Part shown: piece after piece, positions 23,996 to 63,670 of the stretch
Layout of the letters: each line of letters opens with the position of its first letter
Numbering within the stretch: the first letter of the stretch is position 1
IMG/VR virus record: IMGVR_UViG_3300031555_001876
DNA: 64,000 nt
Reading direction: 5' to 3' (one strand)
Source of the DNA: a virus
Notes under the pieces: generated by a model
What the model saw: the letters and a program-made list of their open reading frames with translations, nothing else
The model's database searches: none
What the model was told of the DNA's origin: nothing
Program-made: the position numbers and the translations under genes

Positions 23996-24932
23996 ATGGC
24001 TTTAATATATAAAATTACAAATAAAATTAATAATCAATCATATATTGGAAAAACGATTCAACCTTTAAAGGTAAGATATCAAGAACATCATCAAGACTGT
24101 GCTAAATATTTAAAAAATCAAAAAACTTCTATTCCATTATATAATGCAGTTAATATTTATGGCTGGGATAATTTCACAATAGAAATTATTGAAGATAATA
24201 TCCCTAATAAGTTAATTAATGAAAAAGAATAGTATTATATAAAATATTTTGATACTTATAATAATGGTTATAATGCTACTCTAGGTGGAGATGGTGGAAG
24301 AACTTGTTCAAAATTAAATGAAAGTACAGTCCAATTAATTATTCAAATATTATTAGATGAAAATAATTTAAATTCATTAGAACAAATTGCAAAATAGTTT
24401 AATATTAGTACTACAATTATATCTTCTATAAATCAAGGGAAAGCCTGGTATAATGAAACATTAAATTATCCATTAAGAAAATATAATGTAACAGGATTAA
24501 GCATTAATAAATAGACATATAATAAAATTATTAATGATATAAAGAATACAAATTTATCTTTAAATAGTATTTCTAAAAAATATAACTTAACAGAAAATTA
24601 GATATGTGCAATAAATAATGGATACGAATGTTATAATGGAAAACATCCATATTATACTCCTATTTACGAAGGGCCTTTTCCAATTAGAAGTACAAATAAA
24701 AAAATTGATATAACTAATAATATTCAAAATATATTATATGATATTATTTTTACAAAAGAATCTATGTCTAAAATTGGAGCAAAATATAATCTGCAAGGAA
24801 ATACTTTAACATACATAGCCAATGGGAAAAGAAGAAAAGAACTAACTAAAGATTTTATAACTCCATTACGACATAATATAGAAATAAATAAAAAAATTTA
24901 TAAAAAAATATATTCAATTAAAGAAGGTGATT
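23996..24932 (+). CDS. free-standing GIY-YIG homing endonuclease between nrdD and nrdG; 4 in-frame TAGs
   Basis: Sequence MALIYKITNKINNQSYIGKT..YGWDNFTIEII is present, with C-terminal HTH-like repeats. The gene has its own promoter-like TATATAAT and an RBS. Confidence 0.55.
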
Positions 24933-24934
24933 AA

Positions 24935-29496: not shown

Positions 29497-30273
29497 TTAA
29501 CCAAAATAGTTACTTCCTTCGCAGCATCCGCTACTTCTAAAACCATAACCATAAGGACTATAGCAGCAGTTAGGATTTGGTACAAAGTACGCAGGAATTG
29601 GGCAAGGATCACTTAATTTACTTACCAAATAGGCGTTCTGGGCTTGCTGGGAAGCAGCAAATTTTAGTGACTGATTCTCGGCCTGTAAAGCAGAAATTCT
29701 ATCTTGTGTTAAGAAATCTAAAATAGAACGAACACCTGCATTCTGATTATCAATAATATCACGAGTAGAATCGCTAATAACGTGGCGAGTATCACAAGAC
29801 TGAGTTGCTAAATTATAATTGGTATCAGAGAAGCCACGTTCAATGGCTCTTTGAGTTCCACAGCAACAGTCGCTTATTTGATGAGATAAACTATTCATTG
29901 CCTGCGCTTCTTGGTAGCCTAAAGTACAAATAGCATTATCAATTCCGTGGAAACCACTCATTAAAGCATTATTTAATGCATAAGTACTATCTGCTAAACC
30001 ATAAGTCTGCTGGTCTAATTTAGAAATTAAAGTCTGCTGGTCAACAGCAGCACGCACATCTTCTTGAGTGGCAGGGAGTCCATAACGCATTCCACCACCA
30101 CCACCAAAACCACTACCGCCGAAGCCCCATCCGCCGGCAAATAAGAATAATAAAATTATCCACCAACCATTGTCGCCAAATAATCCATCACCATTTCTAC
30201 TGGAGCCACTGGTGACAGCGGCAATGTCGGCTAAACTATACATACTATTTCCAAACATTTTCATTTCCTCCAA
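29497..30273 (-). CDS. Gly/Cys-rich membrane protein
   Basis: A TM segment is followed by a GGWGFGGSGFGGGGG tract. The C-terminus PNPNCCYSPYGYGFRSSGCCEGSNYFG is Cys-rich. Confidence 0.35.
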   Translation of the reverse strand: MEEMKMFGNSMYSLADIAAVTSGSSRNGDGLFGDNGWWIILLFLFAGGWGFGGSGFGGGGGMRYGLPATQEDVRAAVDQQTLISKLDQQTYGLADSTYALNNALMSGFHGIDNAICTLGYQEAQAMNSLSHQISDCCCGTQRAIERGFSDTNYNLATQSCDTRHVISDSTRDIIDNQNAGVRSILDFLTQDRISALQAENQSLKFAASQQAQNAYLVSKLSDPCPIPAYFVPNPNCCYSPYGYGFRSSGCCEGSNYFG

Positions 30274-31904: not shown

Positions 31905-31955
31905 AAAAAATAAGGCTCGTATCAATTAAGATACGAGCCTTATTTTTTATTTTTT
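31904..31955. terminator. bidirectional terminator between the LytTR gene and the end of the late operon
   Basis: A8, then stem AAGGCTCGTATC / GATACGAGCCTT, then T-rich. Confidence 0.6.
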
Positions 31956-32336
31956 ATTAAGATTTACACTTGCTTCAATTTTTTTACTTATATAAGTATC
32001 TAAATCTCCAACTACTGTTGCTAAATATTCTTTAGCATCATCTGTTAGAATTAACATAACCGCGTCGGCTGACTTTTTAAAAGCCTCTTTTTGCGCTTCA
32101 ATAGTAAATTCGCCTTTACTTTTTAAACTTTCAACATAAGTTTGATTTGTAGCAATAACGCAATCAGTAATTGTCTTTTCTAATAATGTCATATACTTAT
32201 CATATTGAGCATTATTAGTTTTTTCTTTTACTTCTTTCATATGAGTATTTAACCATTTAATAAAATAAGTAGTTAAAACTCCTAACAGAGGTATAATACA
32301 TACTTCAAAAATTTGAGCAATTAATCCAATTTCCAT
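31947..32336 (-). CDS. small membrane protein, holin-like (last gene of the late operon)
   Basis: 129 aa with one N-terminal TM helix. A strong RBS AGGAGGAATAATAT is present. The gene ends at TAA just before a bidirectional terminator. The holin call is positional. Confidence 0.3.
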   Translation of the reverse strand: MEIGLIAQIFEVCIIPLLGVLTTYFIKWLNTHMKEVKEKTNNAQYDKYMTLLEKTITDCVIATNQTYVESLKSKGEFTIEAQKEAFKKSADAVMLILTDDAKEYLATVVGDLDTYISKKIEASVNLNKK

Positions 32337-43099: not shown

Positions 43100-46057
43100 T
43101 TACGTTAAAATACTTTTTAAAAATTCAGTAAAAGCATCGCTTGCGCTAAATTGCTATTTACCATTTTCGTCATAACTCATATTTATTGCGCCATTGCCTA
43201 ATGAAAAACTACCATCTGATTTAATTGTATTAGTAGGAGTTCCGTCTACATCAAATCCAAATAAACCACTAATAGCACTCATAATTTCAGTACCAAATAG
43301 CATACCATTTGAAAATACTTCATTGGCTCCATTAATAGAGCCAGCGCCAATAACTGAATTTATTAATTTAGTTTTTTCAATATTTTTATCATCGATAATA
43401 GTAATTACTCCGCCATTATATCCATCAATATTTTTATTCATATCAGTAGCCAATAGCATAGTAACTGGTTGAATAAGATATGATTCAGAAACACTTGATA
43501 TTTTTATCTTTATCGCGCCCATTGGAATCATAGTTTCTCCACTTTCATCTATGGGGAAATTAGCACCTTTATAAATTTGTGCTGGATAGATATAATAATC
43601 TATTGAACCATTTGAATGATTTAAATAAGAAATAAAAATATTATCATTTAATGATTGCGGTTTTGCTAAACTTACCTATTCTACTCCTTTATAAATTACT
43701 GAAATATATTCAGAACTATAAGAAGGAGTATCTCCATTTGCAGTATAAGTGACTAAATTAGGAATTTTAATTGCGGTTAAATCATCAATATTTATATCAC
43801 CATATGCAATTAATATAGGTTGATAGTAATTAATGATATGACTTGATTCTTCTTTATCACCATTCATAACTTTAATAGTGGTAACAAAACGAACAAAATA
43901 TTGTCCTTGGTCATTCAATTCATCATTACCAGTTACCTCAAACAATGAATCATTTTTATTACTTGATCCAATAGAAGTAGTTTTTACATTAATGGACTAA
44001 ACAACATAAGAAATTTTATAATATCTATTATCATCTATTTTAGTATTATTATAAATAGTTTTACCATCAACAAAAATCTTTGGATGTAAATAAACTTTAC
44101 CCCAAGTTTTTTTCTTATAAGTCAAAGGAATTGATTTTCCATATTCCTATCCTTTATCATCACTATAATTAACAATCATAGTATATGTTAAACCATTCGC
44201 GCCTTGACTGCCCTCTTTAATAAAATTAATTGTTTTATTAAAATAGTAAGTGCTACCTGTTGAAGTTTCAATTTTTAACTATAAAGTATTTAAATTTCTA
44301 TTGCTATAAAATTTAGGACTTATAGTAAAATGAACTGCATTGGTCGCCGCATTAACTCGTATATTACGCATCATTGAATCTTCTGGAGACTGTTTAGCCT
44401 CAAAAATGCGGGCGCCGCTTGGCCCAAACCAAGTAACACCGGTAACTACTGTTGAAGCGTTAGTATTTATAATAGGAGTAATAACCATTTCTTTATCATA
44501 ATCTGTATATGTAATATCTCCATTTACATCATATAAAAAAGTATCAATACCATTATAAAATACTCGAATATCAGTATCAATTAAAGTATTCTTTAATTCA
44601 TAATCATATGGAATAACAGTATTATCATCTAATTTTATAGCAGCCTAAAAAGACACTTCAGGATAATATAAAAATTCAGATACATTAATCTAGTTTGCGC
44701 CACTCGCATATTGATAATAACTACCATCGGGCAAGCGCACATACCAATCTGCAGTTTCTATTTTATCCTATGCATCAATTAATTCTAAAAAAGTTCCAGT
44801 AGCATCAGATACTTTATTAATAGCAAAACGAGAATTAAAATATTTAACTACTCTAACTTCATTTGAAAAAGTCATTGTATTATTATAAATTATTACTAAC
44901 TTAACTCGCATTTGCTAATATACATCGGAGCCACGCAAAGTTAATATATTATAATTTACTTTACTATCAATAATTTCTTCCCATCCACCACCGGCGTATT
45001 GATTATATAATTCGTGACCTGGGACAACTACTGGATTTTGTTTAAACCAATAGCATTGACAATTAGAAGGACTTAAAACATCTTTAAGAGCGTAATAAAA
45101 TTTGCCTTCTAAAGTAATTGTATCAGTATCTTGCGCGAGCGACAAACCCTGAACCGCTTGAATGCCGCAATAATATAAAGAATCAGTATTATCTATATTA
45201 TCAACAAAAGATATTTTAATATTCTTTACAAAAATATTAGGTTCAGTTTTATTTTCATAAATAATATTTCCTTCATTATCTTTTAAGTTGTCATATTCGG
45301 TATATCTTTCTTGGAATAAGGTAATCTTTTTTACCGCAGTTAATTTTATATTCTCCACTTTATAAATTGCATATTGTGGAGAAAAAACTAAATACTAATG
45401 TAAACTACCAACAAAATTAGCGATTTCTAATTTGCGCGTATATGTAATATTTTCATTTTCTTTATCGGTATAAAATTCTACTTTTAAACCATAGTTGCCG
45501 CTTGTGGGGTCGCCCTTAAAATCGGTTTTAAAATCTGCTGAAATTTTAATAGTTGGATATGCTAAAAAAGTACTAACAAAAGTAGCATCTTCTTTATTAG
45601 TTAAATTTTCATAAATAACTGATTCATAATATTTATCTTCTTCACCTGCGCCCGCAAGTACTGAATATGTTTTATCTGTATCCTAAAAACCATATCCCAT
45701 TTCAATTACATTAGAAGCCATAAAATCATATTCTTCTTCTGTAATGGTCGCCGCACTTGCTTTACCTTCTATTAATTTCTTCGCACTAAAATCCCCACCT
45801 GGAATTTTTACATATACATTAACACCCTCATTATATACATAATTTAAATTGGTAGGAGCATAAGCCTTAAATTTACCTTGCTGATATGAAACATAATATT
45901 CACCAGTTTCGGCATTATTTAAACTAACTACTTCTGCGATAATTGTTTTATCAAAATTTAATTCACTATCACGAGCCTATGCAATTAAGTCTATTGTTTT
46001 TATTAACTCATCACTAATATATTTAGGCTTCTTTACTTTAGCCAAATAATTATCCAT
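43100..46057 (-). CDS. large distal-tail (Dit-like position) structural protein (985 aa); ~13 in-frame TAGs
   Basis: The frame is continuous from ATG 46057 (RBS AAAGGAG) to TAA 43100. It lies immediately downstream of the tape measure gene. Confidence 0.4.
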
Positions 46058-46105: not shown

Positions 46106-49100
46106 TTAGATTTTACTTAAATTAAGATATTGAGAAGCGTTATTAGAAAGATTAGACAATGCTTCTTGAATTTCATATTGGTCAACAACATTCGGGAATT
46201 CAGCATTAATATGAACATTTTGTTCAATTGCTTTTTCATCGAATATTGGTAATTTAGTGCTACCTAACATACTTCTTAATTGATAGTCGGTATTAGCAGT
46301 CATCATAGAAATTTGATTATCAATAGAACGAGATACTTTTACTGCGTCTAATATATTAGCAGTATCTTGTTTATTTAATACAAGTTCTTTTTCGTCTAAT
46401 AAAGCCAAACGACCTTCAGAACCCCAAGAACCAGTGTATCCACCTGTATCAAATTTTTTAAGTTTATCAAGTTTGTCTGCAATAACTTCATCATTATAAG
46501 AGCCACCATCAGCAATATGTTTAACAACTTCATTTGCAGTAGGATTTCCTTGAGACGCCTGAATTAAAACATTTTCTAAATCTTTATTGCTAATATATCC
46601 ACTCTTTTCAGGATCTCTTTCTGCTCTATCTGCCATTAACTATTTATAATCATCAGACTATAAATAATTAATATCATTATACAATGCTTCAGTAACATCA
46701 CGGCTAATATCTCCACTGCTTTTTTTAGCGCCACCGCTGCCAGAAGTAATAGTATTATTAATATAAGCCTCATTTTTAGCAAGTTCTTCATCAGTACGTT
46801 TACTGTATTTAGCCTGCCATTCTTCAACCATTCCAATAGCCTAGGAGACATAAGACATTAATACATCGACCAATTCAGATATTTCATCACATAATTGTTG
46901 TACATAAGTTTCTAAAGAACCTAATGTGCCTTCAGTATCTGCGCCAAAGGTTTCCCAACTAGTTCCTGCAACATTCATTGCCTATTCAACGACACCTTGC
47001 CAATCTTTATAATTAACCATTAATTCAGAAATAGTTAAATTAGAATTTTCCAAGAAATGATTATAAGCATCTTCATAATCATAAATATCAGTCATTTGAC
47101 CATAAAGAGTATCGTGGAAAAGAATACCACTTTCTTCTACACCTTTGTTCAATTCATCTAATAAATAGCGTTGACGTTCAGTGTAATATTCTTGTAATGC
47201 GATTAATTGGTCTTGATAGTCAGCCGCATTTTTATCTAAATCCATTAAAGCATCTTTATACTCAATTTGATTTTCAATCAATTGTTGAGATACATCATCG
47301 ATATAATCTTTAGCCAATTGGTCTAATTCAAATAAAGCATCTTCATATTTCTATGTAGCATCTTCAATAGATTCTTCATCAGCGTCATATGCATAAGTCC
47401 AATTACCTGCGGCGTCGCGCACCAAGCGCATAGAGGTCTTACTATTTTGCGCTTCCATTAAAGCAATTTCAGCCAATTGTAAATCATATCTCTTTTGGAG
47501 AATATCTAAATCAAATTGACTCATATCTACGCCTGCTTTTTGCAGTTCGTAAATCTATTGCTGAATATCTCTTAATTTAGACTTTGCTAATAAATCATTT
47601 TCATCTTGGATAGCAGAATTTAATTGACGATTTAATTTATTTAATTCATAAAGTTTTGTAGCATCGTCTAAATATTCATCTTGAATAGTTTTAGCCTATT
47701 CATAATTTTGCTGGAATAATTCTAATGTAGAGAATGGACTTAAAGCGTCACTCATTGTATTGACTGCTAATTCCATTCGCATTTCAAATAATTCAGCCGC
47801 AGCATTTAAAGTTTCTTCCCAAGAGCCAAGAAATTCTTCAGAAGCACTTTCTAATTCGTGCTTTAATTCTTCAACTTGGTTTTCCCAGAATTTAACAGAT
47901 GTCTCGTCGTTGTCCGCCGCTCGGTTAGCCAAGGCCTCTTGCGCTTGTTTAGTGGCGGCCGCAAGCCCATCCATTTGCTGCTTTAAGATACCCATTTTAT
48001 TAACCATAGTTTCGACTCTCATAGTACCAATGCGGACTTTTAAAGTCTAATCAAGCATTGTTCTACCTGACAAGTCGATTATGTTATTAAAATGGTCTAA
48101 CATAGATACATATTTATCTAGCCTATCAGTTTGAATATCAATTTCTTCAAGTGCTAATTCAAGAACATTCTAAACTAATTCTTCCATCTCTTTACGAAGT
48201 TCTAGAATATCTTTATTAACATCAATTAAATCACTTTGATATTCTAATATCTATTCATCAAACATTTGCTCATATCCCGGGTATTGCGCTTTCGCCGCAT
48301 TTAATTCATCAATGCCTTGGCGCAATGTAGCACCCTTTTCAAACAACTAAAGCATTTCTTGCTCTTGATACTGGAAACCTTCAAGCATTGCTTCAATTGT
48401 TTGTTTATTTCCGTGAGCCTGTAATAATAATTTTTCTTGATAATAATTTAATCTTTCAATCTGATAATCAATCTGTTTTACACGCCAATCAATTCTATTG
48501 GTAATATCTTCTAACGCTTTTTCAGCCTATTCACGTTCCTTATCAGCAATTGAAGCAACATTATCATCAATTTTAGATTGTAATTCAGTAGCCTAATCTA
48601 AATCAAAACTTATATCTCTTAACCAAGCCTCTGCTTTATCTTCACTGCCGGTTTCCTGCAGAATTTCTTGGTATTTATCTTCCATTTGTGCATATAAATC
48701 ACTTAAGTTAGCAATTTCACCATCATCAGTTAACTTAATTTCAAATTCTGGATGTTTAGCATTAAATTCTTTAACTTTTTCCTTTAGAAGTTTCTTCCAA
48801 GTTTTAATTTGGTCTTCGAGGATTTTTTGCTCTTCTTCAAGAAGTTCAATTTCTTCTTTGATGTATTTACTTGCGTCTTCTGGATTTAGGCCTTCACGTT
48901 GAGCCTCCAAGCGTTTGCGTTTACTTTCGCTTGTTGACATGCGCTTATCTTGAAGTTCATCATAAGCAGAACCTGAGGAACCTCCTCCACCGCCACCTGA
49001 ACCTTGATATGGGTTGGTTACTGGAGTACTATTTCCTGGACCAGTAAGTATTTCCATATTAGATTTAGCATCACCAGGAATAAGTCCACTAAAGCCTAAA

Positions 49101-52100
49101 TCTGCTAATTGATTTTCAGCCTATATTAATAGTTTTTCTGCCTAAAGAGGTCTTGAACTTGATAAAGCCAATCCTTGTTGCATTAAACTTAAAGCACTAA
49201 TTAATTGCTAAAATCCCTCAGGGGACAATTTAGTTTCACCTATTGCTGCTAACCAAGTTGCAACTTTTTCAGCCTCAATATTTGATGTTAATAAGCCATT
49301 TAATAATTCATTAAAATCGCCTTTACCATTTACATATAAATTTACGGCTTCTGTATTTTGAACTTCACTAATAATTTCCTAAAATTCTTCAAGGTTACCT
49401 TCAAAGCCTACTTTTAATCGAATTTCATTCTAAATATCTTCAAATAAATCTTCAGTACTAATTTCACCTTTACTCCAAGCATTTAGAATATGGTCACGAT
49501 TTTTTATATATTCTTCACTAACTTTAACACCAAAAGCATTTTCTAATTGCTATTGTATATCGCGAATTGCATTATTATATTCGTCACCTTTTAAATCATC
49601 TAAAGATTCAGTTAATTTTCCAATGGCCTATGCTGCTTTATTAACTTCAATTTCTTTAATCTATTTAGAAAACTCTTCGGCCGCGGCAGCACACGCTTCA
49701 GTATTACCCTTATTATCATTAAGAGCCTTATTATATTTCTAAAATGCCGTCGCATATTCTTCACTATCAGCACCTAATTTATACAAAGCATTTCTTGAAG
49801 TTTCATCGGAAAAATCAAAATCTTTATCAGATGTTAAATCATTAATATTATTATAATTATATAATCTTTGCTCTTTATCTTTAGCAATAACTGCATTTAA
49901 ATCAGCATTATGAGCATCTTTTAATTGCGTTAAATAATTAGCGGCTTCTGTTTCATTTAATTCTTCAAGATTAACATTTTTATCTATATCTAAAAACTGT
50001 TTTAAAGCATCACTGTCAGAACTTTGATCTATAGCAAAATTTAAAAGCGCTTTTGCAGAAGTTTTACCAAGTTCTCCAGTATCAAAATAGTCTTGTACTA
50101 CAATACTATTAATACCTTCTGTAAGTTCTTGTCCATATCTAGCCTTTTCTACAATTTCTTCTGAAACTTCTTCTGGAGATTTTTTATTCTACACCATAAA
50201 TTCTTCAGAATTAATCCAAAAACCTTCAATAGCATCTCCAAGTTGCTCAACTTGTTCTTTAGAGATTATATCGCCAACTTTAACGTCGCCTAATAGTTTA
50301 TATAGCGTTTCAAGACGTGAAATAAAATTATTGAGTTTATCAATAGGTAATTCACCGGCCACTTTAGCCATTTGGTTAACAAAAGTACTAATATCAATAC
50401 TATCAAGAGTAATACCTAAAGCAAGCAATTCATTTTTAAATCTATTAACTGCATCGGGTGATTCCCAATCAAAATTATTAATTAGATTAATAAAATCATC
50501 TTGCTAATCTTGGTCAATACTTCCCCACATTTCAGATAAAGTATTTTCTAATTGTCGCTTTCCATCTTCTCCCAAAGATAAATAAGCCTATCTTAATGCA
50601 CCGGATAACCCTTTTGCAGCATAAAGTGAAACATTATCAAAAGTCTTTGATAAACCAAGGTCAGTAATAGCATTTGCTGTTTCCTCGGCTTTACCTAATA
50701 TAAAACTTGTTAATGTGCCTTCTTCTATTTGGAAATAATTTTCTAATTCTTTTTGCTATTTCGTTGTTAATTTTCCTATATCTGTTTTTAATTTATCTCT
50801 TACTAACTAATCCTATGATACATTTTCAAAATTTTTATTTTTAATAAAAGAAATAAGTCCTTCGCTTGCCGAATCTAAAATATTATTAGCAATATTGTTT
50901 GCGGTTCCCGCATTTTCTATAGCACGAGACGCAGCAACACTATCAATAATACTTTTCGTATCATAAACTTCTTCTTTATATTTACCATCTGCTTGTTTAA
51001 CTTGGATAACAAAAGTTCCATCACTACGGACTATATTGCCTTGATTTAACCAATTACCTTCACCAAAGAATTCATTTAAAATCTTTTCAGTTTCTGTACC
51101 TTCTTGTATGTTTGCATCACTGCCACTATATTTATTTAACTAGTCTTCAATAAATTTCTTATTGGTTTCAATCTCTTTATTGACAATGGCATTGGTTAAT
51201 TGAACTTCACCATCTCTATCAGCAAATTTTTCATCTAAATTTCTAATAGCATTTTCTTGTTCTAAAGTTAATAATTCATTATTTCTTTCTAATGTTTTAT
51301 TATTATCTATTATTGCTTGTTGATTATTTTGAATTGCTTCAACAATTTTATCAATATTAAAGTATTGTGTAAAATTATAACCTTTTCCAAATAAACTTTC
51401 AAGTTCACCTGAAGTTAATGAATCAAGTTTATCATAATTATTTAATAAGGTTTCTCGCAAGTGTTCAAACGCAGAATTATAATTTTCATCATAATATTCC
51501 GCATATTCTGGAATAACCTAATTTATTATATTCGAAATATTATTATCTTTATTTAAATTATATCTATCCTAATTAGTTCTCTAATCGGCTTCTAAAACTC
51601 CATAAGTTTTACCGATAACACCTTTATTTATTTCAAACTAATGTTCTTTTCTGCTTTCTGGGTCAATATAAATTTCGCCAGTATCATAAACTTCATATTC
51701 TAATTCAGGAACTAATTTTAATAATTTTAAAGCCTCTTCATTTGCTGCACTTAAAGCATTTTTCCATTCTTCAGTACCTTTTGTACAACTTTCTAAAGCC
51801 TTTTGAGCATTATCATAAGAATTAAAAGCACTATTTAATTCATTTGCTTTCTATTTAGTTTCTTCTAATTTAGTTCTTAAAGCCTCGGCAGATTCTTCAG
51901 AACTCTTTAATATTCCTTCTAAAGAATTCTTTTTAGCATTTTCAATTGCTTTAATTAAAAGAGCAATTGCGGCTGCTATAGCACCAATAATAATAATCCA
52001 TTTTGCAACAGGTAATAATGCTTTTTTTAATGCAGCATTAAATAACTCTACATTAGTTGCTGCACCTGCATAACTCTCTCCTAAAAGTTTATTTGTAACT

Positions 52101-54742
52101 ACTTGTCTTATAGTTTGACCTTCAGTTGCTTTAAGTCCAAAAACAGATGCTAATAAAGTAGGAATAAATCCTCCTTCAATAGATTTAGATATTGCTGAAA
52201 TTCCAGTAGAAAGAGCAGAGAATCCATTAATAATAGAAGGTAAAGACATACTAACAGATAACATTACACTACTAAATTTTTCACCAAAACTTAAATCTTC
52301 ATTGTTTAAAACCTAAATTGCACTGTGTAATCCTATAAAACCTGCGGTTAAAGATGTTACGCCTTCTATAGTAGAAGATAATCCTTCTGAAAATATTTCA
52401 GTTGTATCTTTTTCATTAAAATTACCATTAAGATTTTCATTTATGTCTTGGATGACTTTACCGTGCTCTTCATCTTTTTTCTTTTTTTCTGCATCTAAAT
52501 CAGTACCTTCTTGCAGATTTCTTGCTAAATTGCGAGCCTCTTCTCGACCTTCAGTTAATCCATTAATATAATCATCTAATGCGTGAGACTGTTCTTTAAA
52601 TCCGCCAGTTGTATTTTCTAATTCTTCATCTAATTTTCTATTTGCTTCTGCTATTGCATCTACATCGCCTTTGGCTTCACGAACTTTTCTTTTATAATTT
52701 TCAATTATTTTTATCTACTCATCAGTTGCACCATACTCTTGAAGTTTTGCTTTACCTAAGCCTTTAAAATCCTTGCTCATTACGCGTTTTCGTAATTCAT
52801 CTTTTTTTGGATTATTACTATTTAAATCTTGCTAATATAAACTATTAATTTGTTCGATATAATCTTGATGACCTGACTAAATTAATCTATCTTCTATTGC
52901 TACTCTATCATTTTTATTATTAGATATATTCTAACTAATTGCTACACGCTATTCAGATAAATTATTAGCAACTCCCATTTTTTCTTTAATTAAATTTAAA
53001 GAAAATTCATCTATTTCATTATTATTTACCTTATTTGCTAATTCGTTTGTCCACGCTGATTGATTCTGTAAATTAGCAAAAGCAATATCATTAGTTCGGC
53101 CAAAATCTGCATTTAACAAAGCCTCATTTGCTTCATCTTGCATACGTCTAGCCGTTCCTTTTACTCCATCTGTAATAATAGGTAAATTATTTATTGAACG
53201 ACTAATTTCTTTAGTTAAATTCGGGCCTAATCCCCTTAATAATGCCGAACCTACGACTGCTAAAACTCCTGGTAAACCTCCAAGAGAGTCAATTAATTTT
53301 TCAATTATTCCTAAAGTTCCTTCTAAACCATTATTAATACCTATAAAGAAATCTTCATCAATTAAACTATCATAAATGCCTTCTGCGGCCGCGCGCACAC
53401 GCTTACTTGAGGCTTCCCAACTTTCAGCGTAAACTTCCGCCTGTCTTTCTAATTCTCCAGTAGAAGAATAAGCAGTATTTAAATTTTCTTGGAATGTACT
53501 CCAATTATCCATTAATGCGATTAATTGAGCATATTGACGTACGCCTGCTACAGTTTGCGCGGTTGCGATTTGAGTATCTTTACTTAAAGTTCCCCATTTA
53601 GCACCTAATTCATTTAAAATAACATCCATTTGCTTTACTTCGCCATTGGCATCTTTAATACTGATACCAATCTTATCTAAAGCCTATGAATATTTATTTA
53701 AAGTAGTGCCATCATCCATAGTTTCTCCCAGATTCAAACCTTGAACACGAGAGAATAATGTTTTTAAAGCGTTACCAACTACATCTGCGTTTTGACGAGT
53801 TTCGGCAGTGATAGTAGCAAGAGCAGTAGTTGCATATTCATAACTTAAACCTACAGTTTCTGCTACTGCTGCGAATTTCTCTAATCCAGTTGCAATTTCA
53901 TCAGTACTAGAAGCGGTTGCCGCACCTAACGCAGTCATAACATCAGCATAGTATTCTAATGATTTACTGCCATTATCAAAGTTATTCCAAATAGCAGTCA
54001 GATAGTCAGATACTTCTTTTACAGATTCGCCAGTAACATTTGATACTTTTGTTGTAATATTAGTTCTTGCTTTTACTTCTGAATCACTTAAACCCTATTG
54101 ATAGTAAATTAATGATGCATCAGTATAAGCAGTGGTAGTTACGCTTAATGCCTTTGCTGCTTTATTGGCTTCTTTAGCAAATTTAGCCATCTATTCAGCA
54201 TTCTATCCACTAACAATTCTAATATTATTTAATGATTTATTTAAATCTTGAGCATATCCATATGAAGTCTATAAAGCACCCATAAAGCCATGCATCATAC
54301 TTGAAGAAAATTGCCACTTAATTGTATTTTTCATAGTAGTGGCAAAATCCTATAGCATTTTATTACTCTTTTTTAAAGGTAATTCTGCCGTCGAAATTGA
54401 CTGTGCTAATTTTAAAAAAGTTTTCTAGCCTTCAATACCTAGACTGGAAAGTTCTCTTGAATAATCACTTAAACTTTTTCCTGATTTGGATAAAGACTAT
54501 GAAAATTTAGAAATATCTAATTTGCCAGTATTTACATTTGTCGCACTTTTTATAGCCGCTTTTAAAGAGGTTACTGTATTTAAAGCATCTTTAAAATCTG
54601 CGTTGATTTGCTATCCAGCACTATTTGTTGCTGGTTGTTTTAAAAGTGAATCAAGACTATGCTATAAATTTTCTAATTGCGCTTTAGCCTACTTTACGTC
54701 CGCAGTCATTACTAACTACGCACTATAAACCCTATCAGCCAT
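46106..54742 (-). CDS. tail tape measure protein, ~2878 aa; ~52 in-frame TAGs
   Basis: A single minus frame has no TAA/TGA from ATG 54742 to TAA 46106. It joins 11 track ORFs (53684..53938 down to 46106..46636). The N-terminal TMP core is ..VVGNALKTLFSRVQGLNLGE... Coiled-coil and TM segments are present. Confidence 0.55.
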
Positions 54743-54780
54743 ATAGATATTACTCCTTTCACTCTTTTATTTTTATATAT

Positions 54781-54824
54781 AAAACGAAAAAGGGTTATGA
54801 GAATATAATTCCCATAACCCTTTA
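54781..54824 (-). terminator. stem-loop plus U-tract on the minus strand just upstream of the TMP start codon (possible attenuator)
   Basis: Stem GGGTTATG / CATAACCC with a 12-nt loop, followed on the minus strand by TTTTTCGTTTT. Confidence 0.35.
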
Positions 54825-54863: not shown

Positions 54864-55388
54864 TTATCCTAATTTGCTTAATACGTCTTTTAATAATGTA
54901 AGATTTTCAGGATTAGAAATATTCTTTTGTAATTCATCAATATCAAAATTTAAATTATCATAATCAGTAGTCATAGCCTCTAAAATGCCGCGCACACTAT
55001 TTTGCTATGCATAAATCTTATTAAGAATATCAATAATCCAAGTTTGTAAAGCGTTATACTCTCTCTCGCATATTGCAAGAATTTGTCCTAATAAAGTAGA
55101 AGACACTAAAGCATCATATAATTTATAAGAATTTTCTTTCTGTTTATCAGTAAAAGAAATATTAGTATAATTATAAACCATTTCTAATCCTAAATTTACT
55201 AAAACTTGAGGAATATTAAAATGCTTACTATCTGCTTCTAAAGTAGCACTTACTACTTTATTCATAATAGAAATCTTCTCTTGGATAGGTAAATATTTTC
55301 TTACTTCAATATTTTGCTCATTCCATTCAATAATTTCTATACTTTCATCTATTTTTAATCCTAATTTACTATAAGAAATTTTTGCCAA
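54864..55388 (-). CDS. tail assembly chaperone-like protein (positional); one in-frame TAG
   Basis: ~175 aa acidic protein directly upstream of the TMP. The start is ambiguous (TTG 55397 or 55388 after RBS AAAAGGAG). Confidence 0.3.
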
Positions 55389-55440
55389 ATTAAACAACTC
55401 CTTTTACTCTATTATACAAAAAATTTTTATGTATGTCAAA

Positions 55441-56508
55441 TTATTTATCCATTTTATCTAAAGCTTTTATAGATATTCTTGTTCTATGAGTCTTAAAAGG
55501 CTATGACAAAGAACTAAATATTCCAGTATTTTCACCATTAATATAATCATCTAAAATGGATTGTGTACTAAATACTTTTATACTTCCATTTAAAGTTGAA
55601 TCGTTAACTATTAAGAAATCTACCATCTCTTTATTACTATTACTATCTAACAAACCCAATCCAACTAATTCATAAGTTGAATAAATATGTCCTAAATGTT
55701 TCAAAATTAAACTTTTATGTTCATTATGAAAATCATAACAATTTTTCATTCTATAATACTAATCATATATTCTTTTATAGCTATAATTTGTAACAGCTCC
55801 AACCACACTAGCATACATTCTAAAAGAATTTGTACGACCTAGTTTTGATGCCTCAAAATGTTTTGAATTTTTTAAAGAAAATCTAAATGCTTTTAATATA
55901 GAAAAAGCTCTCAAAGCTTTCGCACTAGCTTTATAATCAATATTTATATGAATATTAAAATTTGAACCAGCGAAATCGGTTTTTCCATATCTTTCAACTA
56001 AAGCTTGCCTTGTTAATGTGTTATAATTATTCTAATCTTCTTTTACTATATTTTGAATTTCCTTTTGATAATCAGTAATTCTTTTTTTAGTCCCATTTTT
56101 ATTTATATTAATAACAGCATTTGTTTTACCTAATCCACCTAAATTAAAGCTCCCCTATAAATCTTTTAACTATAATCCTTGGTCAAAAAACTATTCAGCA
56201 ATATTTTTATCTAAAATGCTAGCAATACTTAACATTAAAGCCTCAAATTCATTTTCTAATTTATCGCCAGCAATGTTAGCGCTACTTCCTTCATATAAAA
56301 ATAACTACTATCCACCCAATAAACTATTAACCCTTTCAGCTAAAAGTCTCATAATAGGGTCATTAGACTAATTAGCATATCTCAACTCATTTAAAAAATC
56401 TTCTAAAAACTAGGCAATATCACTTAAACCATTATTTCTAGAGTATTTTGTAGCTAAAGATGGATGAACTATATTTTCTAAAAAAAAATCTGTACTTATA
56501 GTAGCCAT
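55441..56508 (-). CDS. hypothetical tail-module protein (355 aa); ~10 in-frame TAGs
   Basis: ATG 56508 has RBS AAGGAG. The frame is continuous to TAA 55441 through TAGs. It includes track ORF 55501..55749. Confidence 0.35.
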
Positions 56509-56533
56509 ATTTTTTCTCCTTTCTCTCAAAAGT

Positions 56534-56575
56534 AAAAAAAAGGAGAGGAAATTAAATTTCCTCTCCTTTTTTTTA
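56534..56575. terminator. strong bidirectional terminator downstream of the major tail protein
   Basis: A9, then stem AGGAGAGGAAATT / AATTTCCTCTCCT, then T8. Confidence 0.55.
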
Positions 56576-56728
56576 TTCTTTTACAGGGGCATTTGCCTCT
56601 ATTGCGACTTTTTTCTCTTCCTGCTTTTTAACAGGAAGTTTTTTTTCTTCAACCTTTTTCTGACGTTTTTCTACTTCTTTCTTTACAATAGTAGAAGCAG
56701 ACTTTCGAGGGGTTGCATGAATAATCAT
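56573..56728 (-). CDS. small Lys-rich protein (51 aa) following the major tail protein
   Basis: Sequence MIIHATPRKSASTIVKKEVEKRQKKVEEKKLPVKKQEEKKVAIEANAPVKE. Its stop lies inside the terminator. Confidence 0.25.
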   Translation of the reverse strand: MIIHATPRKSASTIVKKEVEKRQKKVEEKKLPVKKQEEKKVAIEANAPVKE

Positions 56729-56736
56729 ATTATTGA

Positions 56737-57852
56737 TTAGCCAACGAAACTATTTTCGTGTAAGGGTTCATGGAAGGTCTGTGTACGAACCATATCAGTA
56801 GACAGAACATCTTCGATGACCTGGATAGCAGCCATAACTTTCTTGGTGCTATCGAAACGAGTATAGCCGGGGAAAGCGTCAAGAGTAAAGGTGAAGGTTG
56901 AGGGGTCACCACTGGAAGCCATAGAGAAGGTGAAGTTAGACTGTACCTTGCAGTTAGGAATGATAAATTCAGCAGGCAGGTCAACACCGTCTTGGTTACG
57001 GAACAGAGTGGAGGCTTCTAAATAGAAGTTGCCGCCGAAGGATTCAGCAGTAATTTCAATCTGCTTTACGTTGGAAGCCTTTTCAGTATAATAGTCAACC
57101 AAGAAAGTAGAAACACCCTGAACGAACATATTGCTCATTAAATATTCATCATTAATTTCAGTGAGATTATGAATCTTATAATCTTTATCATCCTGATTAA
57201 CATAATTATATTGAGATTCTTCAGAAGCATCTTTCTTCATAGGACTCTTTGGCTGAATAGTAATAGCATACTTTTCAGGTAATTTAGTTTCAGAAGCATC
57301 TTTAACATTTGCCCACTTGCTACCATCCCAATAAACTTCAACAGGGTCAGCAACTACAGGTAAATAAGGTTCAGAAACAACTTCACCATTTCTCATAGCC
57401 ATAACATAAACGTAAGACTCTTGTTTTAAATATGCTCCACCAATCTTGGGTCCCATATAAGGCTTCTGACTTAAATAAATAGTAACGCCAGCAGTCTTAT
57501 CTTCAGGGTTATAAGCAAAATCAGTAGTAGTTTCAGTAACGTGCTGCTTAATGGTGTTAGAAGAGTCGGCTTCAATCAGACCTGCGCCGGCCAGAATCAT
57601 CAGACCTTCAGGAGAAATCAGAGCATCTTCCATAGTGAAAGTTAAGGTCTTTTCGCCGTCCCAGGAAACTAAACGAGCATTGCCGCGTCCGCCCTGTGCA
57701 TAAACAGTGGTAGAAGCGCCTTCTAAAGTAGAAGTCTTTAAAGTATCGAAATACATAACGGGTTCATCTTTATAAAAGATTTTATGGCCAATTTTCATAG
57801 GAGCCTTGGCTTTTAATACGACGTCGCATATTTCGCGAATACCATATTTCAT
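56737..57852 (-). CDS. major tail (tube) protein; no TAG codons
   Basis: 371 aa. It has a strong RBS AAGGAGGAAAAATACTT, a GC-richer TAG-free coding sequence, and lies upstream of the chaperone/TMP region. The assignment is positional. Confidence 0.45.
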   Translation of the reverse strand: MKYGIREICDVVLKAKAPMKIGHKIFYKDEPVMYFDTLKTSTLEGASTTVYAQGGRGNARLVSWDGEKTLTFTMEDALISPEGLMILAGAGLIEADSSNTIKQHVTETTTDFAYNPEDKTAGVTIYLSQKPYMGPKIGGAYLKQESYVYVMAMRNGEVVSEPYLPVVADPVEVYWDGSKWANVKDASETKLPEKYAITIQPKSPMKKDASEESQYNYVNQDDKDYKIHNLTEINDEYLMSNMFVQGVSTFLVDYYTEKASNVKQIEITAESFGGNFYLEASTLFRNQDGVDLPAEFIIPNCKVQSNFTFSMASSGDPSTFTFTLDAFPGYTRFDSTKKVMAAIQVIEDVLSTDMVRTQTFHEPLHENSFVG

Positions 57853-61059: not shown

Positions 61060-61629
61060 TTATTCAGCCTTACTTACTACATTATATTTAGTAGTGGTTC
61101 TGCGGCGAGTAGGAGCCTCTTCAGTCTTAACACGACGTTCGAAAGCCGCAGGTTCGATTTGTCCAGCCTTACTTTCAGCCTTTTCTGCTTCTAAATTCTT
61201 TAAAGCAGTATCAACGTCAAATCCAGTCTTTTCTTTTAAAGCATTGCGCTTATCATAATCCATCAAAGGGACTGAAACCGCAAATTGCTTTAATAAATCA
61301 ATTACTCCAATAGGAGCAAAATCTAAACAATCTAAAAATGCATCTAAAGAGCCATTTTTAATCAAATTAACAATATCTGCTTCGCTCATATAGTATTCAT
61401 TTTCAGGTTGAATGTTTAATTCTTGGATTGCAGCATTTTCAGTAATTTGTAAAAAATTACGCATTAAAGTAGTACCGCCTTGTTGATAACTTAATTTTAA
61501 AAGTTCAACACAAGGAATTCTTTTAGTTTCACCAGGCTGAAATTCTCTACGAATACCATCTTCTCTGATATTATAAACAACCATACTGGAACTTCTATTC
61601 TTTACATTGACAATTCTATTTTCATTCAT
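61060..61629 (-). CDS. hypothetical virion protein (189 aa); no TAG
   Basis: ORF immediately downstream of the capsid gene. Confidence 0.35.
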   Translation of the reverse strand: MNENRIVNVKNRSSSMVVYNIREDGIRREFQPGETKRIPCVELLKLSYQQGGTTLMRNFLQITENAAIQELNIQPENEYYMSEADIVNLIKNGSLDAFLDCLDFAPIGVIDLLKQFAVSVPLMDYDKRNALKEKTGFDVDTALKNLEAEKAESKAGQIEPAAFERRVKTEEAPTRRRTTTKYNVVSKAE

Positions 61630-61714: not shown

Positions 61715-62854
61715 TTAGCCTTGAACGTCTCCGCCATCAACATCATCTTGAGAACCAGTGATGTTACCTGCGTAGTCACGAACATAACCAGTTACACCGT
61801 CTAAATGCCAGGTGACCATATCACCCAGTAATTCGGTGTCACAGTAGCAGCAAATGTTGTTAGCCAGCATTGCTAAAACGCCAACCTTCTTGTAAACGTG
61901 GATTTCACGAGACCAGTCATAGTTGTTATCGCGTTCAGCAACTAAAGTGCCGCCTTCAAAAGCGATCTTAACAGGCTTGCTGTCAGCGCAGGAAGGAATA
62001 ATCCAGCAATAACCGGGATCAATAACCTTGCGGCTATTGGTTCCATCTTCGAAGCCCTGCTCTAAAATAACAACCTTATGGCCCTTATAAGAAGCCAGAC
62101 GACCAGTTCTCCACAATTCATCCTTCATTGCTTCAGTATAACGCCAAGCATCTTTGGGAATCATACGGACAGCAAATTCATAAGTACAATAAATAGTAGG
62201 AGTACCATAAGCGCCAGCAATCATCAGTAACTTGTCGAAAGCAGCCTCATCGAAACCATTAGTAGCAACACGGTTTGCAGGAGGTAACTGATTAATAGAA
62301 GCCTTCAGAGCAGCAGCAACTTCTTTATAAATCAGTTCATCCATACCTTCCATAACAATGCGAGTGACAACAGAGAAGTCAACACGACCATCAAGGAATT
62401 CTTCGAAGCCGATTTGAGCGGCGCCGCCAATAGCACTAGTAGGTACCATAAAGGATTCTTCGCCAGCACTTAACTTAAATACTTCATAAACACCTGCTAA
62501 ACCAATGCGAGTAACGAACTGCTTTGCACGATGGTTGGAGCCGAGTTTTCTGCGGAAGACAGCACGGTCACCCTGTGCGAAAGTCTTAACTTCAGCAAAC
62601 TGGGCATACTGTTCTTCAACTTTCTTAGGAAGAACTTCATTTAAAGTTTCTTCAATAATAGAGAAAATCAGGTTCTTATTTTCACGATATAATGCATAAG
62701 TACCTGCTAATTCATTAAATTCCTGACGTAAAGTCTCATTTAAAGCCTCGTAAGACAGAGACTGTCCATCAAAACTGTAAGCAACAGGAGCAGAAGGGTC
62801 AGCCTTTGCGACCTGTTTGGCAAGAGCAACTAAATTATTTCTATCTAAAGCCAT
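61715..62854 (-). CDS. putative major capsid protein (379 aa); no TAG codons, GC-richer
   Basis: The call rests on size and position downstream of the scaffold-like gene, TAG-free codon usage and higher GC. No diagnostic motif was recognised. Confidence 0.35.
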   Translation of the reverse strand: MALDRNNLVALAKQVAKADPSAPVAYSFDGQSLSYEALNETLRQEFNELAGTYALYRENKNLIFSIIEETLNEVLPKKVEEQYAQFAEVKTFAQGDRAVFRRKLGSNHRAKQFVTRIGLAGVYEVFKLSAGEESFMVPTSAIGGAAQIGFEEFLDGRVDFSVVTRIVMEGMDELIYKEVAAALKASINQLPPANRVATNGFDEAAFDKLLMIAGAYGTPTIYCTYEFAVRMIPKDAWRYTEAMKDELWRTGRLASYKGHKVVILEQGFEDGTNSRKVIDPGYCWIIPSCADSKPVKIAFEGGTLVAERDNNYDWSREIHVYKKVGVLAMLANNICCYCDTELLGDMVTWHLDGVTGYVRDYAGNITGSQDDVDGGDVQG

Positions 62855-62872: not shown

Positions 62873-63670
62873 TTAAGCGATACGCATTAATTTAACACCG
62901 CGCTGATGGTCGGGCATAGTATAAACTTTAACAACCTGCCACTGGATAGAGCCATCGCCGGACTTGCTTAAAATACCATCAGCAGCACGAGGACTTAAAA
63001 CGTCACCGACTACTAATTCTTTTTCCATAACCATATTAGTGGTAAATAAATCACCAGGCATAGTCTTTAATACACGAGGAACCATAACAGTGCCTTCGGG
63101 CATTCTCTTTTCTCTATAAGGTCCTTCAATATGGAAAGGATCTTCATTATAATGTAATTCATAAGGATCGGTAGCAGCAGGAGCAGTAACCTTATCGAAA
63201 GGATAAACCTTACCATTTAATTCAATAGAACTATTGCCTTCTGCGTCGACGCCATTATAATATCTGGTCTGACGGTCCCAAGCAGTATCTAAATCAGCAG
63301 TGGGATTGCCATCCTTATCAACACCATAGCCAAATGGACTATAGATACGAGCGTTGTAATTGTGCTTTAACATAGCAAATTCGCAATCCATCTGCATTGG
63401 GTCACGATATAACTTAATTTCATTAAAGACCATCATCCACTCGCCTGCGCCAGTGAAGTTAACAACACCATTAGCATAGTCATACTTAACGAACTGACCT
63501 TGCTCTAAAATCTGAATATCTTTATTAGCAGGTAACTGTGCATAAACCTGACCATTGCGCTGTGCACTTAAATGGTTGGGTTCTACCTGACCGAAACCAT
63601 AATCAACATATCCGCCAGCGGCTTTAGAAGCCTGGGAGACGAAATGCTGACCAATGAAATCTTTTAGCAT
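62873..63670 (-). CDS. capsid-associated protein (265 aa; decoration protein or alternative capsid protein candidate); no TAG
   Basis: TAG-free ORF lying between the scaffold-like and 379-aa genes. Confidence 0.3.
   Translation of the reverse strand: MLKDFIGQHFVSQASKAAGGYVDYGFGQVEPNHLSAQRNGQVYAQLPANKDIQILEQGQFVKYDYANGVVNFTGAGEWMMVFNEIKLYRDPMQMDCEFAMLKHNYNARIYSPFGYGVDKDGNPTADLDTAWDRQTRYYNGVDAEGNSSIELNGKVYPFDKVTAPAATDPYELHYNEDPFHIEGPYREKRMPEGTVMVPRVLKTMPGDLFTTNMVMEKELVVGDVLSPRAADGILSKSGDGSIQWQVVKVYTMPDHQRGVKLMRIA

What the first reader, a model, noticed from the sequence alone, without database searches (positions are those of the whole stretch)
46106..54742. Exceptionally long tape measure protein (~2878 aa) reconstructed across 52 TAG codons
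One minus frame has no TAA/TGA for 8.6 kb and starts with the recognisable TMP core (..VVGNALKTLFSRVQGLNLGE..). It continues through coiled-coil and TM segments seen in track fragments 52949..53629, 51851..52264 and 47696..48022. At ~0.15 nm per residue this predicts a ~430 nm tail. Translational attenuation at leaky TAG suppression may be used to limit TMP dosage, since the TAG-free major tail protein is adjacent. A stem-loop with a U-tract sits immediately upstream of the TMP start (54781-54824).
Basis: partly seen in the sequence, partly recalled or inferred. Interest (0 to 1): 0.55.

Follow-up and report, generated by a model that had tools for sequence, protein, structure and literature searches.

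The report
Long tape measure gene, TAG-recoded phage
This is one real 2,878-residue tail tape measure gene of an SPbeta-like gut phage that reads the stop codon TAG as glutamine; both its length and its 52 TAG codons are normal for its group, so it is a clean but ordinary example of a known phenomenon.

Summary
On the minus strand, 46106-54742 is one frame of 2,879 codons with 52 TAG, no TGA and a single terminal TAA. It encodes a tape measure protein (TMP): Pfam PF10145 matches at E 1e-25, and gene order matches SPbeta and Enterococcus 140-kb siphophages. Its N-terminus, a middle segment and its C-terminus all match one standard-code 2,673-aa TMP, so it is one gene.

TAG is read as Gln. Residues in TAG columns of a 26-sequence TMP alignment are 3.45-fold enriched for Q, and 15 of 17 conserved-Q columns contain TAG.

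The length is not exceptional. Complete TMPs in 25 relatives are 2,757-3,306 aa, and one exceeds 3,835.

The TAG density is not TMP-specific. TAG makes up 0.30 of Gln-type codons in the TMP and 0.31 across the late module. Relatives carry 0 to 115 TAGs in the same gene.

The TAG-free tube gene is part of a clade-wide pattern: the most abundant virion proteins avoid TAG and prefer CAG.

The upstream hairpin is real and conserved. It closes a conserved cassette of a consensus promoter and a small gene.

No suppressor tRNA was found. Verdict: a new member of a known kind (code-15 phages), low interest.

The parts
46106..54742 (-). Tape measure protein CDS: 2,878 aa plus TAA stop, with 52 in-frame TAG codons read as Gln
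   Evidence: Frame and stop counts. PF10145 at residues 192-400, 91.3 bits against a cut-off of 33.2. PHROG TMP families 4211 and 34405. Three collinear BLASTP matches to the 2,673-aa Enterococcus phage VRE9_2 TMP. Hydrophobic segments at 483-505 and 904-936.
54753..54759 (-). Shine-Dalgarno sequence AAAGGAG, 10 nt before the TMP ATG
   Evidence: Sequence read.
54779..54823 (-). Intrinsic-terminator-like hairpin (16-bp stem, 3-nt loop) with a T-tract, between the 174-aa gene and the TMP gene
   Evidence: A hairpin plus T-tract sits at the same position, with a different sequence, in 18 of 24 unique relatives under strict criteria. Random windows give 2.4%. The SPbeta record annotates a stem_loop between yomJ and yomI.
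54864..55388 (-). 174-aa gene (TTG start) of the phrog_30570 type; function unknown, with a tail-assembly-chaperone-like position
   Evidence: PHROG hit. The start was extended to the TTG at 55388, after AAAGGAG, which gives the 174-aa length seen in relatives.
55411..55439 (-). Perfect sigma-70/sigma-A consensus promoter, TTGACA-17-TATAAT
   Evidence: It is the only 12/12 site in the late region. An 11-12/12 site lies about 700 nt (658-887) before the TMP start in 23 of 27 unique relatives, and 1,166 nt before it in one more.
56532..56576 (.). Palindromic (bidirectional) terminator-like hairpin downstream of the tube gene
56737..57852 (-). Tail tube protein (YomU_Tube, phrog_2729), TAG-free and CAG-preferring
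43100..46057 (-). First tail gene after the TMP (985 aa, 12 TAG); no family match

Best explanation
The interval is one intact gene for the tail tape measure protein of an SPbeta-like siphovirus from ruminant-gut metagenomes. Its late genes are written in genetic code 15, where TAG means glutamine.

The 52 TAGs are ordinary Gln codons. They occur at the frequency typical of low- and medium-copy late genes in this genome. They are not a device specific to the TMP.

Inferred from the published model for recoded phages: TAG-containing late genes become translatable only once TAG decoding is switched on during infection. The first block in the TMP is at codon 9, so the whole tail and assembly module is gated together.

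The most abundant virion proteins (capsid, tube and two head-associated proteins) avoid TAG and prefer CAG across the clade. This suggests TAG is decoded well enough for proteins thousands of residues long, but is disfavoured where output must be maximal.

Inferred from the anatomy: TMP dosage relative to the tube protein is more plausibly set at the transcript level. A terminator follows the tube gene. A conserved consensus promoter, 174-aa gene and terminator cassette sits directly before the TMP gene, and late transcription has to read through it.

The protein would set a tail of roughly 400-430 nm. This is an extrapolation and was not measured.
For: One gene and a TMP:
- Frame statistics.
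- PF10145 and TMP PHROGs.
- BLASTP to the single 2,673-aa CDS of Enterococcus phage VRE9_2 at residues 148-526 (E 2e-37), 2295-2539 (2e-13) and 2739-2873 (2e-19).
- The standard-code relative L014 has an uninterrupted 2,968-aa ORF that ends in the same C-terminal motif.
- The neighbouring genes in the late module match those around the VRE9_2 TMP: YonB capsid, YomW, YomV, YomU tube, phrog_30570, TMP.

TAG = Gln:
- Q is enriched 3.45-fold in TAG columns.
- 15 of 17 conserved-Q columns contain TAG.
- Column of codon 216 is Q16/TAG9; column of codon 2464 is TAG14/Q10.
- CAA+CAG+TAG per TMP stays between 173 and 215 whether TAG is 1 or 115.

Not TMP-specific:
- TAG share is 52/173 = 0.30 in the TMP and 0.309 for the module.
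- Relatives carry 0, 11 and 33-115 TAGs in homologous TMPs of 2,757-3,306 aa.

Avoidance in abundant proteins:
- 0 TAG in 56 Gln-type codons of four CAG-preferring late genes of the window (tube, capsid, 62873-63670 and 29497-30264, the last of unknown function), P about 1e-9.
- Clade totals are CAA 107 / CAG 228 / TAG 8 for the tube and 86 / 320 / 6 for the capsid.

Transcript architecture.

Literature:
- phAss-1 group, with a TMP broken by TAG and tRNA-Sup-CTA genes (PMC10607447).
- Late-gene recoding model and the mixed-code Agate clade (bioRxiv 10.1101/2021.08.26.457843).
- SPbeta tail of 320 nm (PMC8270828), with yomI at 6,858 nt = 2,285 aa.
Against: - No tRNA of any kind was found in the 64-kb window. 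None was found in more than 150 loci of relatives that reach about 20 kb beyond one end of the window and about 28 kb beyond the other. The decoder of TAG is therefore not shown.
- There is no proteomic or expression data.
- About 2,200 residues between the N-terminal domain and the C-terminus match no family and no solved structure.
- Helical content was not computed, so the tail-length estimate rests on an assumption.
- Promoter and terminator function is inferred only from consensus matches and positional conservation.
Confidence: 0.9

Rival explanations
1. TAG suppression is leaky, and the 52 TAGs were selected to throttle TMP output relative to the TAG-free tube protein.
For: - The tube, capsid and two head proteins are TAG-free here and nearly so in 35 relatives, while neighbouring genes carry 5-12 TAGs. 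This implies TAG has a cost.
- My own arithmetic: a per-codon read-through of 0.90 over 52 codons gives about 1/240. That is close to my rough estimate of the tube-to-TMP ratio for a 400-nm tail (about 600 tube subunits to 3-6 TMP chains).
Against: - The TMP's TAG share (0.30) equals the module mean (0.31).
- Homologous TMPs of the same length class carry 0 (L014), 11 (L036) or up to 115 (L042) TAGs, although the stoichiometric need should be the same.
- With 115 TAGs, read-through must be about 0.96-0.99 per codon for any useful yield.
- Throttling in this way would waste hundreds of long truncated chains for each full one.
- Conserved terminators offer a cheaper route.
Confidence: 0.08
2. 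There are two or more genes, or a decayed gene. Some TAGs are true stops, and 46106-46636 is a separate protein.
For: With the standard code, an ATG-initiated 176-aa ORF is called at 46106-46636.
Against: - That ORF is homologous to the last 140 residues of a single standard-code TMP.
- Zero TAA/TGA in 2,878 codons at 30.7% GC is not compatible with decay.
- 25 relatives keep the frame open end to end.
- TAGs sit at conserved Gln positions.
Confidence: 0.01
3. TAG is read as an amino acid other than Gln.
For: - No decoder tRNA was found.
- L159, an unlinked 10-kb contig from a sample that carries this phage, has an 87-nt tRNA(CTA). From my own knowledge that length fits a long variable arm, but this was not checked.
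Against: - Q is by far the most enriched residue in TAG columns. The next, K and E, are at only 1.4-fold.
- Several columns contain only Q and TAG.
- L159 shares only a homing-endonuclease-like ORF with the window and has 46.6% GC.
Confidence: 0.03

Closest known systems
SPbeta YomI and the TMPs of about 140-kb Enterococcus siphophages (VRE9_2, EF1, H1)
   Same: - PF10145 N-terminal core.
- Conserved C-terminal domain (GGYTG...LxxKExVLN region).
- Gene order tube, small genes, TMP, tail genes.
- Length class: 2,285 aa (YomI) and 2,673 aa (VRE9_2).
- In SPbeta, a stem-loop just before the TMP gene.

   Different: - Those genes use the standard code.
- Only about 31-35% identity, limited to three segments.
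- YomI is annotated in some records as a transglycosylase, whereas no enzymatic domain is detectable here.
phAss-1 / 'Caudoviricetes code 15 clade' (PMC10607447)
   Same: A gut phage of about 136 kb whose TMP and other virion genes are interrupted by TAG read as Gln. From the wording of the paper, its capsid gene appears not to be recoded.
   Different: - Only 33% identity over the TMP N-terminal domain.
- phAss-1 carries a large tRNA array that includes tRNA(CTA); the paper reports 36 tRNA genes, three of them tRNA-Sup-CTA. No tRNA was found here or in the relatives scanned.
Recoded gut phage clades of Borges et al. (Agate and others; bioRxiv 10.1101/2021.08.26.457843)
   Same: - Large phages from animal guts, predicted by those authors to infect Firmicutes.
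- Recoded stop codons concentrated in structural and lysis genes, with core replication genes unrecoded.
- Standard-code, TAG-recoded and TGA-recoded genomes as close relatives. The same is seen here: L014, most loci, and L020.
   Different: Membership was not tested because no terminase phylogeny was made. The clade-wide TAG avoidance and CAG preference in the capsid and tube genes did not turn up in the term searches I ran on that paper; I did not read it in full.
Thermus phage P23-45 / P74-26 TMP (5,002 aa, 800-nm tail; bioRxiv 10.1101/2022.12.01.518664)
   Same: A very long TMP that sets a very long siphovirus tail.
   Different: It is much longer, carries a fused RNA polymerase domain, uses the standard code, and has no detectable homology.

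Membership tests
Tail tape measure protein (PF10145-type) | PF10145 domain above Pfam's gathering score | tested here: met
   91.3 bits against a cut-off of 33.2, residues 192-400, spanning two TAG codons. Ten PHROG families annotated as TMP also hit residues 15-505.
Tail tape measure protein (PF10145-type) | Position between the tube or chaperone genes and the distal tail genes | tested here: met
   The neighbouring genes YomV-like, YomU tube, phrog_30570 gene, TMP and large tail proteins match those around the VRE9_2 TMP. SPbeta places its TMP the same way, between the tube gene and the tail genes.
Tail tape measure protein (PF10145-type) | One polypeptide running from the N-terminal core to the conserved C-terminal domain | tested here: met
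   Three collinear matches to one 2,673-aa CDS. The standard-code relative L014 is uninterrupted.
Tail tape measure protein (PF10145-type) | Extended helical protein with hydrophobic segments | tested here: inconclusive
   Hydrophobic segments at 483-505 and 904-936, and only weak coiled-coil-type Pfam hits. Secondary structure was not predicted.
Tail tape measure protein (PF10145-type) | Protein length sets tail length | not testable with these tools
   This needs electron microscopy. The extrapolation gives 403-432 nm, using 0.14 nm per aa (SPbeta: 320 nm for 2,285 aa) to 0.15 nm per aa (PMC8270828).
Genetic code 15 phage (TAG = Gln) | Conserved essential genes are open only if TAG is a sense codon | tested here: met
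   The TMP and 15 other late genes.
Genetic code 15 phage (TAG = Gln) | TAG aligns with Gln in homologs | tested here: met
   3.45-fold enrichment of Q. 15 of 17 conserved-Q columns contain TAG.
Genetic code 15 phage (TAG = Gln) | Phage-encoded suppressor tRNA(CUA) | tested here: inconclusive
   None in the window or in the flanks of relatives. However, only 64 kb of a genome probably at least 185 kb long was available, and the literature reports that some recoded phages lack such a tRNA.
Genetic code 15 phage (TAG = Gln) | Peptide evidence for Gln at TAG | not testable with these tools
   This needs metaproteomics, as in PMC9523058.
SPbeta-like structural module | YonB capsid, YomU tube, YomV and YomW Pfam families | tested here: met
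   Precomputed Pfam hits on the identical proteins. The early genes carry YorH (weak hit) and YorF marks.
SPbeta-like structural module | YonO-type late RNA polymerase | not tested
   None of the large TAG-free window proteins scanned against Pfam is one: the 832-aa ORF is DNA polymerase III alpha. The rest of the genome was not seen.
Agate clade (Borges et al.) | Placement in the terminase phylogeny | not tested
   The terminase gene lies outside the window.
Intrinsic terminator | G+C-containing stem followed by a T-tract, downstream of a gene | tested here: met
   Positional conservation in 18 of 24 relatives against 2.4% of random windows. Termination activity itself cannot be tested here.

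The most novel reading that the evidence does not exclude
In this SPbeta-like ruminant-gut clade the number of TAG codons may act as a graded expression dial. The most abundant virion proteins are kept TAG-free and CAG-rich, and low-copy proteins carry many TAGs. The decoder may be something other than a conventional phage tRNA, since none was found across roughly 110 kb of equivalent genome. Under this reading the TMP, which has the most TAGs, would be the most strongly damped gene.
Probability: 0.12. Interest if true: 0.5.

Novelty: new member of a known kind. Interest (0 to 1): 0.2.

Why it matters
The main value is for annotation. With the standard code this gene is shredded into fragments of at most 226 aa. 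The full-length protein is absent from a collection of 15 billion proteins, while its fragments are present. It is a clear case for calling phage genes with code 15.

The family also offers a natural experiment. Homologous TMPs of about 3,000 aa carry 0 to 115 TAGs, or 26 TGAs, alongside capsid and tube genes that are nearly always TAG-free (0-2 TAGs in the relatives). That could be used to measure how efficient reassigned-stop decoding must be.

Tried and rejected
- **Extending the window to find a suppressor tRNA.** Exact-pattern scans of the viral and metagenome collections found nothing. Look-ups of window proteins returned only short contigs. I then walked through relatives using five protein queries and tRNA scans. 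No tRNA was found.
- **Generic pattern for an anticodon loop plus T-arm of tRNA(CTA).** L159, from a sample carrying this phage, has a tRNA(CTA), but it could not be linked to this phage.
- **Rfam.** No hit at gathering thresholds.
- **Solved structures.** No relative for the whole TMP or for its C-terminus.
- **Pfam on six overlapping TMP segments.** Only sub-threshold coiled-coil noise and no enzymatic domain.
- **Internal repeats.** None by self-BLAST or Tandem Repeats Finder.
- **The motif ATAGGAATA next to the hairpin.** It is not over-represented in the window.
- **Homology of the 174-aa gene to SPbeta YomJ or YomK.** None.
- **Megablast of 24 kb of the window against 50,697 phage records.** No match.
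Full report
**1. The observation**

The window has 30.7% G+C. On the minus strand, 46106-54742 is a frame of 2,879 codons with 52 TAG, no TGA and one TAA, the terminal stop. The other two frames of that strand contain 148 and 426 TAA/TGA over the same span. The ORF starts at the ATG at 54742, 10 nt after AAAGGAG. An in-frame TAA lies 8 codons upstream. With the standard code the region falls into pieces of at most 226 aa.

**2. Genomic context**

- When TAG is treated as a sense codon, the window resolves into a plus-strand replication module (1-28 kb) and a minus-strand virion and lysis module (28-64 kb). The replication module includes a DnaB with a LAGLIDADG intein, a split DNA polymerase III alpha, NrdD and an AAA_24 protein.
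- Sixteen of the 23 late ORFs I tabulated carry in-frame TAGs, and all end in TAA or TGA.
- Identical proteins on public contigs carry precomputed Pfam marks: YonB (capsid, 61715-62854), YomW, YomV and YomU_Tube (56737-57852). Early genes carry YorF and a weak YorH mark. This is therefore an SPbeta-like siphovirus.
- Relatives turn up in MAGs from roe deer, yak and sheep guts and from rumen, with mutually inconsistent taxonomic labels. They look like phage contigs that were binned by mistake, so the host is unresolved.

**3. What the ORF is**

- PF10145 (phage minor tail / TMP core) matches residues 192-400 at E 1e-25. PHROG TMP families 4211 and 34405, whose profiles are 2,625 and 2,675 positions long, match residues 16-502.
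- tblastn against annotated phages finds the TMPs of about 140-kb Enterococcus siphophages and SPbeta YomI.
- The 2,673-aa VRE9_2 TMP is a single standard-code CDS. It matches residues 148-526, 2295-2539 and 2739-2873 of this protein in collinear order.
- The standard-code 'ORF' 46106-46636 is therefore the TMP's own conserved C-terminal domain.
- The genes around the TMP are shared with VRE9_2: phrog_4051/YomV, phrog_2729/tube, phrog_30570 and the TMP.
- The roughly 2,200 residues in between match no family and no solved structure. They contain no internal repeats. They include hydrophobic segments at 483-505 and 904-936 and a Gly-rich linker near residue 1920.

**4. Relatives**

A scan of IMG/VR with the N-terminal 509 residues returned 36 loci.

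- Complete TMP ORFs in 25 distinct relatives are 2,757-3,306 aa, counting only sequences over 2,000 aa. One (L008) is still open after 3,835 codons.
- 2,878 aa is thus in the lower half of the clade's range. It is far below the 5,002 aa of Thermus phage P23-45 (bioRxiv 10.1101/2022.12.01.518664).
- L014 is a standard-code relative, with 2,968 aa and no in-frame stop. L036 has 11 TAGs. The others have 33-115.
- L020 has no TAG but 26 in-frame TGAs, which align with invariant Trp columns.
- One TMP family therefore spans the standard code, TAG=Gln and TGA=Trp. This is the behaviour Borges et al. described for their Agate clade (bioRxiv 10.1101/2021.08.26.457843).

**5. The meaning of TAG**

- In a MAFFT alignment of 26 distinct TMPs, residues in TAG-containing columns are enriched 3.45-fold for Q. 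The next residues, K and E, are enriched about 1.4-fold.
- 15 of the 17 conserved-Q columns contain at least one TAG.
- Some columns contain only Q and TAG. The column of window codon 216 is Q16/TAG9, and that of codon 2464 is TAG14/Q10.
- The sum CAA+CAG+TAG per TMP stays at 173-215 whether TAG is 1 or 115.
- TAG = Gln is well supported by sequence. There is no peptide evidence.

**6. Is TAG a TMP-specific throttle?**

| Measure | Value |
|---|---|
| TAG share of Gln-type codons, late module | 0.309 |
| TAG share of Gln-type codons, TMP | 52/173 = 0.30 |
| TAG count in homologous TMPs of similar length | 0 to 115 (up to 53% of Gln-type codons) |

- The TMP has many TAGs because it is long.
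- With 115 TAGs, decoding must be nearly as efficient as for a sense codon, or almost no full-length protein would be made.
- This argues against selection of TAG number to set TMP dose.

- In the window, the tube, the capsid, the 265-aa protein (62873-63670) and the 255-aa protein (29497-30264) have 0 TAG in 56 Gln-type codons (P about 1e-9). They prefer CAG over CAA, unlike all other late genes. The 189-aa gene next to the capsid gene (61060-61629) is also TAG-free but uses mostly CAA.
- Across 35 loci of relatives, tube and capsid homologs total CAA 107 / CAG 228 / TAG 8 and CAA 86 / CAG 320 / TAG 6. The small YomV-like gene next door carries 5-12 TAGs in the TAG-recoded relatives.
- My inference is that TAG is usable but disfavoured where output must be maximal, or where translation must not depend on the code switch.

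**7. The upstream hairpin**

- The stem-loop is a 16-bp hairpin at 54823-54789 followed by a T-tract.
- An equivalent hairpin plus T-tract, with an unrelated sequence, lies within 130 nt of the TMP start in 18 of 24 unique relatives by strict criteria. Two more show it by folding. Random windows give 2.4%.
- About 700 nt before the TMP start there is a perfect TTGACA-17-TATAAT promoter at 55439-55411. It is the only 12/12 site in the late region.
- An 11-12/12 site lies 658-887 nt before the TMP start in 23 of 27 unique relatives, and 1,166 nt before it in one more. The set includes the standard-code L014.
- The promoter sits just before the Shine-Dalgarno sequence and TTG start (55388) of the phrog_30570-type gene. 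That gene is therefore 174 aa, as in relatives, not 133 aa.
- The hairpin thus closes a conserved cassette of promoter, small gene and terminator placed directly before the TMP gene.
- SPbeta also has an annotated stem-loop between yomJ and yomI.
- A second, palindromic terminator follows the tube gene at 56532-56576.
- In SPbeta, the late operon is transcribed as one unit by the phage polymerase YonO (PMC5467207, PMC8270828). Whether this phage has such an enzyme is unknown.
- My inference is that transcript-level insulation or attenuation explains lower TMP output better than stop-codon leakage does.

**8. Tail length**

SPbeta has a 320-nm tail (PMC8270828) and a 2,285-aa YomI, which gives 0.14 nm per residue. 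At 0.14-0.15 nm per residue, 2,878 aa predicts about 400-430 nm. This is plausible but untested.

**9. The missing decoder**

- ARAGORN and Rfam find no tRNA in the window.
- No tRNA was found in more than 150 loci of relatives. Together these reach about 20 kb beyond the window start and about 28 kb beyond its end.
- The same tool finds 33 tRNAs, including tRNA(CTA), in phAss-1.
- The source genome is probably at least 185 kb, so the decoder may lie in the part not seen. This remains open.

**10. Verdict**

This is a genuine single TMP gene in a TAG=Gln phage of the SPbeta lineage. Its length and TAG content are normal for its clade. The phenomenon is documented in phAss-1 (PMC10607447), in Borges et al., and by proteomic validation of code 15 (PMC9523058). 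I classify it as a new member of a known kind, with low interest. Three points are modestly interesting: the clade-wide TAG avoidance in the major virion proteins, the conserved promoter-gene-terminator cassette before the TMP, and the suppressor tRNA that was not located.

Noticed in passing
L020 9977-18139 (IMGVR_UViG_3300021255_000152): This homologous TMP has 26 in-frame TGA and no TAG. The TGAs align with invariant Trp columns, so this relative reads TGA as Trp. L014 (IMGVR_UViG_3300032038_000397) uses the standard code. One TMP family therefore contains three genetic codes.
   Followed up: partly
window 55411-55439 (-) and 54864-55388 (-): A perfect sigma-70-type consensus promoter lies directly before a 174-aa gene of unknown function (phrog_30570) with a TTG start. 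A strong terminator follows the gene. The promoter recurs in 24 of 27 relatives and the terminator in 18 of 24, and the gene has homologs in all 36 loci. The cassette looks like an independently expressed unit embedded in the late operon.
   Followed up: partly
window 56737-57852, 61715-62854, 62873-63670, 29497-30264 (-): These TAG-free late genes use CAG rather than CAA for Gln and have higher G+C than their neighbours. The pattern holds for tube and capsid homologs across 35 loci of relatives.
   Followed up: yes
window 7201-7896, 11704-12360, 18557-19381, 23996-24934 (+): These are four mutually similar ORFs, probably homing endonucleases, scattered among the replication genes. One sits between the two parts of a split DNA polymerase III alpha (15877-18375 and 19500-20876). 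The DnaB-like helicase (4877-7045) carries a LAGLIDADG intein-type insert.
   Followed up: no
window 1-64000 and more than 150 loci of relatives: No tRNA gene was found anywhere, although the phage reads TAG as Gln. The related phAss-1 carries a large tRNA array that includes tRNA(CTA).
   Followed up: partly
window 31947-32336 (-): This holin-like gene (phrog_13712) has no TAG. Published work reports that lysis genes are the most strongly recoded. Only 4 Gln codons are present, so this is not significant.
   Followed up: no
window 55441-56508 (-): This 355-aa gene between the tube gene and the promoter cassette has the highest TAG share in the window (10 of 15 Gln-type codons). It has homologs in only 5 of the 36 loci, so it appears to be a variable insert.
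   Followed up: no
L159 422-508 (IMGVR_UViG_3300029705_003602): This is a 10-kb contig from a sample that also carries this phage. It holds a 15-tRNA array that begins with an unusually long (87-nt) tRNA with a CTA anticodon. The same anticodon arm occurs in 46 other viral contigs, none of which belongs to the TMP clade.
   Followed up: partly
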